Virus record (IMG/VR): IMGVR_UViG_2713896782_000022
Source of the DNA: a virus
Lineage: Duplodnaviria; Heunggongvirae; Uroviricota; Caudoviricetes
DNA: 5,959 bases
Reading direction: 5' to 3' (one strand)
The notes under the pieces were generated by a model, which searched no databases, had not been told where the DNA came from, and saw only the letters and a list, made by a program, of their open reading frames with translations. Below, in pieces: positions 1-1,280 of the stretch. A program made the position numbers and the translations under genes. Position 1 is the first letter of the stretch; each line of letters starts with the position of its first letter.

Positions 1-1280
1 ACGACGGGACAGCGCCTCCAGACTGTAGTTCTGCTGCTGAAGATACAGTGCATCACCGCCGGCCAGGGGCGGCAGGTTCTCCCGTTTACGGGCCTCATTG
101 GGCGTGAGAAGCGTATTTTTCACCGCATCCCCCAGCGTTTTCATGCGCCGCTCACTGTCCATTCTCAGCAGCGTGGTGACATCAAATTCTGTACTCTCGT
201 TTTCCCCCGTTTCCAGCGCCTCATCCAGTAACAGTTCAATGGACTCAATCAGCGTCTGCAGNNNNNNNNNNNNNNNNNNNNNNNNNNNNNNNNNNNNNNN
301 NNNNNNNNNNNCGTCTGCAGGCACTGGGAATAATACTGCTGCTCCAGCGCCTCCACGTTGTCACTGGAAGGCGGTTGTCCCACGCCAATCTTGTAGGCCG
401 GGACACGGAACACCGAACAGACAATTTCAGCGGTCATCTTCAGTTGTTCCACCGTCTGCGCATCCACCGGTGAAAACGTCGTGGGGTTGTATTTTGCCCC
501 GTTGCTCAGAATGGCCGTTTTCCCCGCATTTTCGCCTGTATACCCGCTGTCCCAGTTGCTCTTCAGTTTTTTCGCATTTTCTTCCGTAATACTGCCGGGG
601 ATCTCAATCACCCCGGACGGCCTGCCGCCATTTCTGAAAAAAGACGTCGAATTTTCCTGAATATGATGCCCCTGCGTGGCCGCCAGCCCGGCGGCATACA
701 CCGGCGGCAATCCTATAAGCGGATGAAAAAAACAGTTAAACCGGTCGTGGATCACTTCCCGGGCAGGCACCGTCACCGCCTCCGTGATCCCGCAGTTCCG
801 GTCCGGCGTGATGCGGTAGAACACCTCGCCGTCATCCGCCACCAGAGGTTCAACCCGGCTCCAGTCCAGAATACGCAGTTCTTTGATCTGCCCCCGGGCA
901 TTACGGATTTTCAGCACCACCGTATTGCCATGACGCAGTTTGGCGTTCAGCCACAGTTCAAAAAACTGGATGCGGTTCTGCTGGGCGTTGGGACGACGAC
1001 AGAGGCGGGCAATATCCCCCCGGCGCGTTTCCCTGCGTATCCCATGCGCATCCGTCTGCATAAGACGCAGCCGCATTTTGGCGATATCCTGGGATATCAG
1101 CGAAATACATGCAAACACCGCATGAAAGGAGAGGACGGCTTCAGGATCGGCTTTCACGCCCTGCTGCCAGGCGCCGGAAAAGGGCTCAGCCACCGCCTGA
1201 AACAGGCTGGTCCAGCCCGCCTCTCTTACGTCACGTCCTGATTTCTGGTTTTTTCGGGTTCGCCGTAAAAGGTTCCACAT
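1..1280 (-). CDS. Phage portal protein, HK97 family (partial: C-terminus lies beyond the left edge; interrupted by the N gap at 262-311)
   Basis: Minus-strand ORF starting at ATG 1280-1278 (MWNLLRR...), with GGAG about 8 nt upstream and an in-frame stop 5 codons upstream. The translation has portal-like conserved blocks (AVFACISLISQDIA; RPNAQQNRIQFFELWLNAKLRHGNTVV; FFRNGGRPSGVIEIPGSITEENAKKLKSNWDSGYTGENAGKTAILSNGAKYNPTT; AEIVCSVFRVPAYKIGV). The track ORF ends at 249 only because the 50-N run shifts the frame. My own translation of the reverse complement of 1-261, in the frame aligned to position 1, gives an open portal-like C-terminal segment (LQTLIESIELLLDEALETGENE...TPNEARKRENLPPLAGGDALYLQQQNYSLEALSRR) with no stop codon. 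Family assignment is from memory of the portal fold family. Confidence 0.88.
262..311. other. Assembly or scaffold gap (50 N)
   Basis: A run of exactly 50 N. It is flanked on both sides by the identical 9-mer cgtctgcag (253-261 and 312-320). Confidence 0.95.

What the first reader, a model, noticed from the sequence alone, without database searches (positions are those of the whole stretch)
253..320. The N gap is probably artefactual: its flanks overlap by 9 bp and closing it restores one continuous portal ORF
The 50-N run is bounded by identical 9-mers (cgtctgcag at 253-261 and 312-320). Joining the flanks by overlapping these 9 bp gives ...EQQYYSQCLQT|LIESIELLLDEALETGE..., one open reading frame continuous with the portal frame on both sides. 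With 50 N inserted the frame is broken and a spurious stop appears at 249-251. A 9-mer identity by chance is very unlikely, so the two contig ends most likely overlap and no sequence is missing. The portal 'truncation' is therefore an assembly artefact, not a pseudogene.
Basis: seen in the sequence. Interest (0 to 1): 0.4.

Follow-up and report, generated by a model that had tools for sequence, protein, structure and literature searches.

The report
Scaffold gap with overlapping contig ends
The 50-N run is almost certainly an assembly spacer between two contig ends that overlap by 9 bases, and removing it restores an ordinary, well-known prophage portal gene of E. coli O157:H7.

Summary
The window's only N run is 262-311 (50 N), bounded by CGTCTGCAG at 253-261 and 312-320. 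Random end pairs share a 9-mer about 1.7e-5 of the time.

Collapsing the two 9-mers and deleting the Ns gives 5,900 bp. This is identical at every base to prophage Sp6 of E. coli O157:H7 Sakai and differs at 2 bases from Stx2c phage 2851. All 1,249 matching records among 5,426 complete E. coli genomes hold a place covering at least 80% of the collapsed junction, and all 60 sampled are one ungapped piece. None carries a tandem copy of the 9-mer. No IMG/VR contig carries other sequence at the site.

The joined protein matches the HK97-family portal model end to end (TIGR01537, 352 bits). The duplicated join scores 344 and the truncated ORF 278. Both flanks carry the same prophage haplotype.

One rival survives without reads: the 9-mers could be a target-site duplication around an unassembled insertion sequence. 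I put this at about 5%.

This is an ordinary artefact in a known gene, so interest is low. The window cannot show whether the portal is intact beyond codon 407.

The parts
253..261 (.). Left copy of CGTCTGCAG, the last 9 bases of the left contig (codons L-Q-T of the portal on the minus strand)
   Evidence: tiles onto the single reference copy in alignment A1
262..311 (.). Run of 50 N: a fixed-length scaffold spacer that does not stand for real sequence
   Evidence: reference spans are the query length minus 59 (1441 for a 1500-nt query; 5900 for 5959)
312..320 (.). Right copy of CGTCTGCAG, the first 9 bases of the right contig; the same genomic bases as 253-261
312..1280 (-). Portal gene, codons 1-323 (ATG at 1280)
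   Evidence: same start as the annotated portal CDS in TR01, phage 2851 and Sakai
1..261 (-). Portal gene, codons 321-407, running off the left end of the window
   Evidence: identical to Sakai Sp6, phage 2851 and TR01
249..251 (-). Spurious TGA, reached only because the 50 N shift the reading frame
1226..1447 (-). Context: 73-aa hypothetical ORF overlapping the portal start; no Pfam hit
1492..3429 (-). Context: prohead protease and major capsid fusion, 645 aa (Peptidase_S78 + Phage_capsid)
3493..5154 (-). Context: terminase large subunit, 553 aa
5151..5714 (-). Context: terminase small subunit, 187 aa

Best explanation
The N run is a scaffolding spacer, not biology. Two contigs from the same prophage copy end 9 bases past each other's start. 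That overlap was too short for the assembler to merge, so a scaffolder or contig-ordering step placed them in the correct order and orientation with a fixed 50-N spacer. The 9 shared bases therefore appear twice. The true sequence is window 1-261 followed directly by 321-5959. It encodes an uninterrupted N-terminal 407 residues of an HK97-family portal protein, within the head-packaging module (small terminase, large terminase, protease-capsid fusion, small ORF, portal) of an E. coli O157:H7 Sp6 / Stx2c-phage-2851-type lambdoid prophage.

Shown: the overlap, its identity with references, and the continuity of the gene. Inferred: why the contigs broke here. The likely cause is that this module is present in several near-identical copies per genome, which is a notorious source of fragmentation.
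For: The collapsed 5,900-bp sequence has 0 mismatches to Sakai prophage Sp6 (the right flank matches 100% over 5,648 bp; the left flank is identical). It has 2 mismatches to phage 2851 and 2 to strain TR01. Each reference holds a single copy of the 9-mer at the junction.

A 560-nt collapsed junction query found 1,249 records among 5,426 complete genomes, and every one has a place covering at least 80% of the query. All 60 rows sampled down the ranking are one piece with no length change. An 80-nt query keeping both copies reaches only 88.8% (71/80, record span 71 nt) at best, and no record reaches 90%.

TIGR01537 portal_HK97 scores 352 bits over profile 2-343/343 for the collapsed join, 344 for the duplicated join, and 277.9 over profile 2-275 for the truncated ORF. 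Pfam Phage_portal matches in one stretch, 2-321/321. The best PDB match (9lbn) has no gap at or next to the junction; the HK97 portal (8cez) aligns across it with a 4-residue gap three residues beyond.

Both flanks carry the Sp6 haplotype at all sites that distinguish Sp6 from the paralogue Sp10, 13/13 on the left and 89/89 on the right.

The locus is a known assembly trouble spot. There are up to 7 places per genome, and the identical capsid protein occurs in 3 prophages of single genomes. In 6,296 of 8,451 collection blocks the longest contig carrying the capsid protein is only 2-10 kb. The literature reports phage repeats over 7 kb in O157 and that short reads cannot resolve these paralogues (PMC4132626; PMC5359411). 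The left contig stops one base before J262, a common G/A polymorphism among copies (42 of 139 loci).
Against: No reads or assembly metadata are available, and the source contig could not be found. The cause of the break is therefore inferred. The paralogue-SNP explanation is only half supported. The right contig starts at J253, and its outward neighbour J252 is invariant in 139 loci. One contig end falling next to a common polymorphism has roughly a 10% chance by luck. The assembly also ran through the 4.6-kb stretch that is exactly repeated between Sp6 and Sp10, so simple repeat collapse does not explain a break at this particular spot. In-frame restoration is equally expected if an insertion with a 9-bp target duplication lies in the gap.
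Confidence: 0.92

Rival explanations
1. The two 9-mers are a 9-bp target-site duplication flanking an insertion sequence or transposon, such as IS1, IS10, IS903 or IS50, which make 9-bp duplications (from general knowledge). The multi-copy element could not be assembled. The unique contigs therefore end exactly at the duplicated target, and the scaffolder bridged them with Ns. In that case sequence really is missing and the portal gene is disrupted in this strain.
For: Overlapping left and right flanks are the recognised signature of a novel IS insertion (ISMapper paper, PMC4558774). IS elements are a common cause of contig breaks. IS629 insertions do occur elsewhere in this same module, in phages 1717 and Stx2a_F349. 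This reading would explain why a break sits exactly here. It also predicts that collapsing the repeat restores the frame.
Against: Neither contig end carries a single non-reference base. De Bruijn assemblers normally leave part of the IS terminus on such ends (general knowledge). No IMG/VR contig has non-reference sequence after the left flank plus 9-mer or before the 9-mer plus right flank (0 hits; all 95 hits continue as reference). The single metagenome hit is an unrelated chance match. Every complete-genome record holds an uninterrupted copy. The sequence is 100% Sakai-like, and the multi-copy IS the ISMapper paper tested in Sakai are IS629, IS609, ISEc1 and ISEc8. None of these is a classical 9-bp duplicator: IS629 makes 3-4 bp and ISEc8 8 bp (my knowledge, not tested). 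CGTCTGCAG does not fit the IS10 hotspot NGCTNAGCN (my knowledge).
Confidence: 0.05
2. The strain carries a real in-frame tandem duplication of 9 bp (LQT-LQT) in the portal, and the Ns were inserted between the two copies.
For: Abutting the flanks with both copies retained stays in frame. It still passes the portal model at 344 bits.
Against: No complete E. coli genome record has the duplicated junction; the best match is 71/80 with a 9-nt gap in all 1,251 records. None of 139 related loci has it. The profile score is 8 bits lower than for the collapsed join. A 9-bp tandem repeat would not stop any assembler, so it gives no reason for a gap.
Confidence: 0.01
3. The 9-mer identity is coincidence, or the flanks come from different prophage copies that were mis-joined, and an unknown stretch of real sequence is missing.
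For: Repeated 9-mers are common somewhere in a 5.9-kb window, with 274 direct pairs. The module is multi-copy.
Against: The chance that the two gap-adjacent ends specifically share 9 nt is about 5e-6 to 1.7e-5. The flanks are exactly adjacent in every reference. Both flanks carry the same Sp6 haplotype at 13/13 and 89/89 discriminating sites.
Confidence: 0.01

Closest known systems
Portal gene ECs_1544 of prophage Sp6, E. coli O157:H7 Sakai (NC_002695.2)
   Same: The collapsed window is identical at all 5,900 bases to Sp6. This covers the first 407 portal codons and the neighbouring capsid and terminase genes.
   Different: Sakai has no N run and only one copy of CGTCTGCAG. The rest of the portal (833 aa in Sakai) lies outside the window.
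Portal protein (GP3) CAQ82041.1 of Stx2c-converting phage 2851 (FM180578)
   Same: There are 2 mismatches in 5,900 bp, both upstream of the small terminase gene. The portal N-terminus and gene order are identical.
   Different: The phage 2851 portal is 859 aa, with a C-terminal end different from Sakai and TR01 (first stop at codon 860 versus 834).
HK97-family portal proteins (TIGR01537 / PF04860; solved structures 8cez and 9lbn)
   Same: Full-length profile match well above the cut-off, and sequence similarity to the solved portals across the junction.
   Different: In close relatives the gene continues into a roughly 400-aa C-terminal extension with tandem repeats, which the solved portals of 424 and 431 residues lack. 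Here the portal follows the protease-capsid fusion gene rather than preceding it.
Scaffold gaps with short contig-end overlaps in draft bacterial assemblies
   Same: A fixed-length N spacer, flank ends that are identical, and a collapse that reproduces the reference.
   Different: Nothing distinctive. The assembler and scaffolder are unknown.

Membership tests
Assembly artefact: scaffold spacer between overlapping contig ends | A run of N of round, fixed length between two sequence blocks | tested here: met
   Exactly 50 N at 262-311, the only N run in the window
Assembly artefact: scaffold spacer between overlapping contig ends | The end of the left block equals the start of the right block, beyond chance | tested here: met
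   9-nt identity; chance 5e-6 to 1.7e-5
Assembly artefact: scaffold spacer between overlapping contig ends | Collapsing the overlap reproduces contiguous sequence in independent finished genomes | tested here: met
   0/5,900 mismatches to Sakai Sp6; all 1,249 matching records cover at least 80% of the junction query and all 60 sampled are one ungapped piece
Assembly artefact: scaffold spacer between overlapping contig ends | Reads or an amplicon span the junction without extra sequence | not testable with these tools
   No reads available; the source contig was not found
HK97-family phage portal protein (TIGR01537 / PF04860) | Profile score above the curated cut-off | tested here: met
   TIGR01537 scores 352 bits against a cut-off of 112; PF04860 scores 275 bits against 39.1
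HK97-family phage portal protein (TIGR01537 / PF04860) | The whole profile is covered in one stretch with no residues missing at the junction | tested here: met
   Profile 2-343/343 in one stretch (residues 45-388); the truncated ORF covers only 2-275; 9lbn aligns through CLQTLIES without a gap
HK97-family phage portal protein (TIGR01537 / PF04860) | Sits in a head-packaging module with terminase, protease and capsid genes | tested here: met
   TerS, TerL and a Peptidase_S78 + Phage_capsid fusion lie immediately upstream on the same strand
HK97-family phage portal protein (TIGR01537 / PF04860) | Forms a dodecameric ring at one capsid vertex | not testable with these tools
   Not attempted
IS or transposon insertion with a 9-bp target-site duplication | Direct repeat of the target flanking the element | tested here: met
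   9-bp direct repeat flanks the gap; this feature is shared with the artefact reading
IS or transposon insertion with a 9-bp target-site duplication | Element termini (inverted repeats) directly inside the direct repeats | tested here: inconclusive
   The interior is all N; no non-reference base lies at either contig end
IS or transposon insertion with a 9-bp target-site duplication | An insertion at this site is seen in any related sequence | tested here: not met
   0 hits in IMG/VR on either side; one unrelated metagenome hit; every complete-genome record has an uninterrupted copy
IS or transposon insertion with a 9-bp target-site duplication | A multi-copy IS that makes 9-bp duplications is present in the host lineage | not tested
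   The ISMapper paper tested IS629, IS609, ISEc1 and ISEc8 in Sakai; their duplication lengths are from memory only

The most novel reading that the evidence does not exclude
The 9-bp repeat is the target-site duplication of an unassembled insertion sequence that has knocked out the portal gene of an Sp6 / Stx2c-phage-type prophage in this one strain. This would make the prophage unable to package DNA.
Probability: 0.05. Interest if true: 0.15.

Novelty: not a real feature. Interest (0 to 1): 0.05.

Why it matters
The value is practical. Automated annotation of this record would call a truncated or pseudogenised portal and might score the prophage as defective, when the gene is most likely intact across this point. 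The record can be repaired by deleting window 262-320. There is no new biology in the gap, and the underlying genes are already described in O157:H7 Sakai prophage Sp6 and Stx2c phage 2851.

Tried and rejected
1. I looked for the window's own source contig and did not find it. An exact 27-mer scan of IMG/VR returned 95 loci, none with the N run. The X-containing truncated ORF is not on record.

2. I tried to explain the break by paralogue structure. I fetched Sakai Sp15, Sp4 and Sp14, but they carry a different, lambda-type head module and were uninformative. Sp10 is a true paralogue. It is exactly identical over J1291-5900 and has SNPs roughly every 15 bp across J1-1290 (89 sites); J numbers are positions in the collapsed 5,900-bp sequence. 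The sites nearest the junction are J235 and J262. J262, next to the left contig end, is commonly polymorphic. J252, next to the right contig end, is invariant in 139 loci. The idea that both ends stop at variable sites is therefore only half supported and could be chance. Sp3, Sp8, Sp9, Sp11 and Sp12 were not fetched.

3. A de Bruijn unitig model does not fit. The 26-nt stretch shared between J235 and J262 would predict overlaps of k-1, not 9.

4. The pattern was mis-designed: VHN allowed the reference bases. It was repeated correctly.

5. The metagenome hit L145 is an unrelated GC-rich contig that shares only the 21-mer.

6. The old EDL933 assembly was considered as the source. By subtraction it holds about 228 N outside its 4,000-N gap (PMC4132626). 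The EDL933-like IMG/VR loci found do not contain this gap, so this was left open.

7. I did not run chimeric flank-plus-IS1-end queries against complete genomes. The prior is low, and a negative result would say nothing about the source strain.

Full report
**Observation**

The window has a single N run, 262-311, exactly 50 N. The 9-mer CGTCTGCAG occurs only twice on either strand, at 253-261 and 312-320, directly abutting the Ns. The longest suffix-prefix identity between the two flanks is exactly 9 nt.

All genes lie on the minus strand. The ORF listed as 249..1280 reads through the portal N-terminus to ...EQQYYSQCLQT, then 17 X, then CRR and a TGA at 249-251. That stop is reached only because 50 N shifts the frame.

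Collapsing the two 9-mers gives ...QCLQTLIESIELLLDEALETGE..., open to window position 1.

From base composition, the chance that two unrelated ends share 9 nt is about 5e-6. Empirically, 34 of 2,000,000 random end pairs drawn from this window do so.

Keeping both copies (LQTLQT) is also in frame. An insertion with a 9-bp target duplication would likewise collapse to an open frame. Frame restoration alone therefore does not discriminate between the readings.

**What the sequence is**

I call the collapsed sequence J: window 1-261 plus 321-5959, 5,900 bp. J numbers below are positions in it.

- J is identical at every base to prophage Sp6 of E. coli O157:H7 Sakai. The right flank matches 100% over 5,648 bp, the left flank is identical, and an ungapped comparison finds 0 mismatches.
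- J differs at 2 bases from Stx2c-converting phage 2851 and at 2 bases from strain TR01.
- In each reference there is one copy of the 9-mer, and the two flanks tile onto it with a 9-column overlap (alignment A1).
- Reference spans are always the query length minus 59 (1,441 for 1,500; 5,900 for 5,959).

The genes, on the minus strand, are:

- small terminase, 5151-5714;
- large terminase, 3493-5154;
- a prohead-protease and capsid fusion, 1492-3429;
- a 73-aa ORF, 1226-1447;
- the portal, starting at 1280 (annotations).

**Is anything missing at the junction?**

A 560-nt collapsed junction query matched 1,249 records from 1,244 of 5,426 complete E. coli genomes. Every record has a place covering at least 80% of the query. 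All 60 rows sampled evenly down the ranking (100% to 94% identity) are a single piece with no length change.

An 80-nt query that keeps both 9-mer copies reaches at best 71/80, with a 9-nt gap. No record reaches 90%, so no finished genome has the tandem duplication.

In IMG/VR, all 95 contigs holding the left-flank 27-mer continue with reference sequence. A pattern demanding non-reference bases after the left flank plus 9-mer, or before the 9-mer plus right flank, found nothing. The one metagenome hit is an unrelated contig sharing only the 21-mer.

At the protein level:

| Model | TIGR01537 (portal_HK97) score | Profile covered |
|---|---|---|
| Collapsed join | 352 bits | 2-343/343 |
| Duplicated join (LQTLQT) | 344 bits | 2-343/343 |
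| Truncated ORF | 277.9 bits | 2-275 |

Pfam Phage_portal is covered 2-321/321 in one stretch. The best solved-structure match (9lbn) aligns through CLQTLIES without a gap. The HK97 portal 8cez aligns across it with a small gap three residues further on.

**Same copy or mis-join?**

Sakai prophage Sp10 carries a paralogous module. It is exactly identical to Sp6 over J1291-5900 and has 102 differences in J1-1290. The window carries the Sp6 allele at all 13 discriminating sites in the left flank and all 89 in the right flank. The two contigs therefore come from the same haplotype.

**Why a break here (inferred)**

The module is multi-copy.

- There are up to 7 places per genome.
- The identical capsid protein sits in three prophages of single genomes.
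- In 6,296 of 8,451 collection blocks the longest contig carrying the capsid protein is only 2-10 kb.
- The literature notes phage repeats over 7 kb in O157 and that short reads cannot resolve these paralogues (PMC4132626; PMC5359411).

The left contig ends one base before J262, a common G/A polymorphism among copies (42 of 139 loci). However, the right contig's outward neighbour J252 is invariant. This link is weak, with roughly a 10% chance of arising by luck. The assembler, the scaffolder and the source record are unknown.

**Rivals**

The serious rival is a 9-bp target-site duplication flanking an unassembled IS. Overlapping flanks are exactly how tools such as ISMapper recognise novel insertions (PMC4558774). 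The evidence against it:

- There are no IS-derived bases at either contig end.
- No insertion at this site appears in any related sequence examined.
- The host lineage is Sakai-like, and the multi-copy IS that paper tested in Sakai are IS629, IS609, ISEc1 and ISEc8. As far as I know (not tested), these do not make 9-bp duplications.

I give this rival about 5%. A real tandem duplication gets about 1%, and a coincidence or mis-join about 1%.

**Comparison with known families, and novelty**

The gene is a member of the HK97-family portals by every sequence test run. At the nucleotide level it is the already-described portal of Sakai Sp6 and phage 2851. The gap is not a biological feature.

**Limits**

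The window ends at portal codon 407, so it cannot show whether the whole gene is intact. Downstream, outside the window, relatives vary:

- 859 aa in phage 2851;
- 833 aa in Sakai Sp6;
- annotated 'frameshifted' in TR01, where reading from the start codon gives the same first stop as Sakai Sp6 (codon 834);
- two ORFs in Sp10, BP-4795 and JLK-2012.

**Verdict**

This is an ordinary assembly artefact in a known gene, and interest is low.

Noticed in passing
Outside the window, about 130 nt left of window position 1 (portal nt ~1345-1350); e.g. L003 ~2615-2620, and L011, L005, L007: A homopolymeric G tract, TTCA(G)nATAC, toggles the portal architecture. G6 gives one long ORF of 833-861 aa (portal plus C-terminal extension) in Sakai Sp6, phage 2851, YYZ-2008 and TR01. 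G5 stops the portal at aa 454, and a second ORF of about 405-461 aa starts in an ATGA overlap in Sakai Sp10, BP-4795 and JLK-2012. Among the loci held the counts are G5 72, G6 52 and G7 1, and both alleles occur on both junction haplotypes. This could be slippage switching, a programmed frameshift site, or partly homopolymer sequencing error in drafts.
   Followed up: partly
Outside the window: portal C-terminal extension, e.g. L002 1642-2900 (-) and L001 3637-4900 (-): The roughly 400-aa C-terminal extension of the portal holds about three tandem copies of a ~54-aa unit (IPVPRDGRDYDPDVLQKAVNDAVAxIPxPADGKSxTPDDVxPMLEQMVKEAVSH). These are absent from the solved HK97-type portals of 424 and 431 residues. 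Its function is unknown.
   Followed up: no
L001 3637-6221 (-) versus L002 1642-4221 (-): The portals of TR01 and Sakai Sp6 reach a stop at codon 834, whereas phage 2851 reads on to codon 860. PGAP flags the TR01 gene as 'frameshifted', while Sakai annotates the same form as an intact 833-aa protein. This is an annotation inconsistency for the closest relatives of the window.
   Followed up: partly
window 1226-3429 (-): The gene order is unusual for an HK97-like head module. A 645-aa protease-capsid fusion (Peptidase_S78 + Phage_capsid) and a 73-aa ORF with no family hit lie between the large terminase and the portal. The 73-aa ORF overlaps the portal start by 55 nt. This arrangement is already annotated in O157 prophages.
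   Followed up: no
window 1350-5959 (J1291-5900) versus L011 26188-30797: This stretch is a 4,610-bp exact repeat between Sakai prophages Sp6 and Sp10, covering the terminases and capsid. It ends abruptly close to the portal start, and the portal itself then differs at about 7% of sites. The sharp boundary looks like a recombination or gene-conversion breakpoint between resident prophages.
   Followed up: partly
L086, L108, L127 (IMGVR_UViG_638341086_*): One IMG genome contributes three prophage contigs with this module. L086 carries scattered single N bases. This resembles the ambiguity-rich old EDL933 assembly described in PMC4132626, but none of the three holds the 50-N gap.
   Followed up: no
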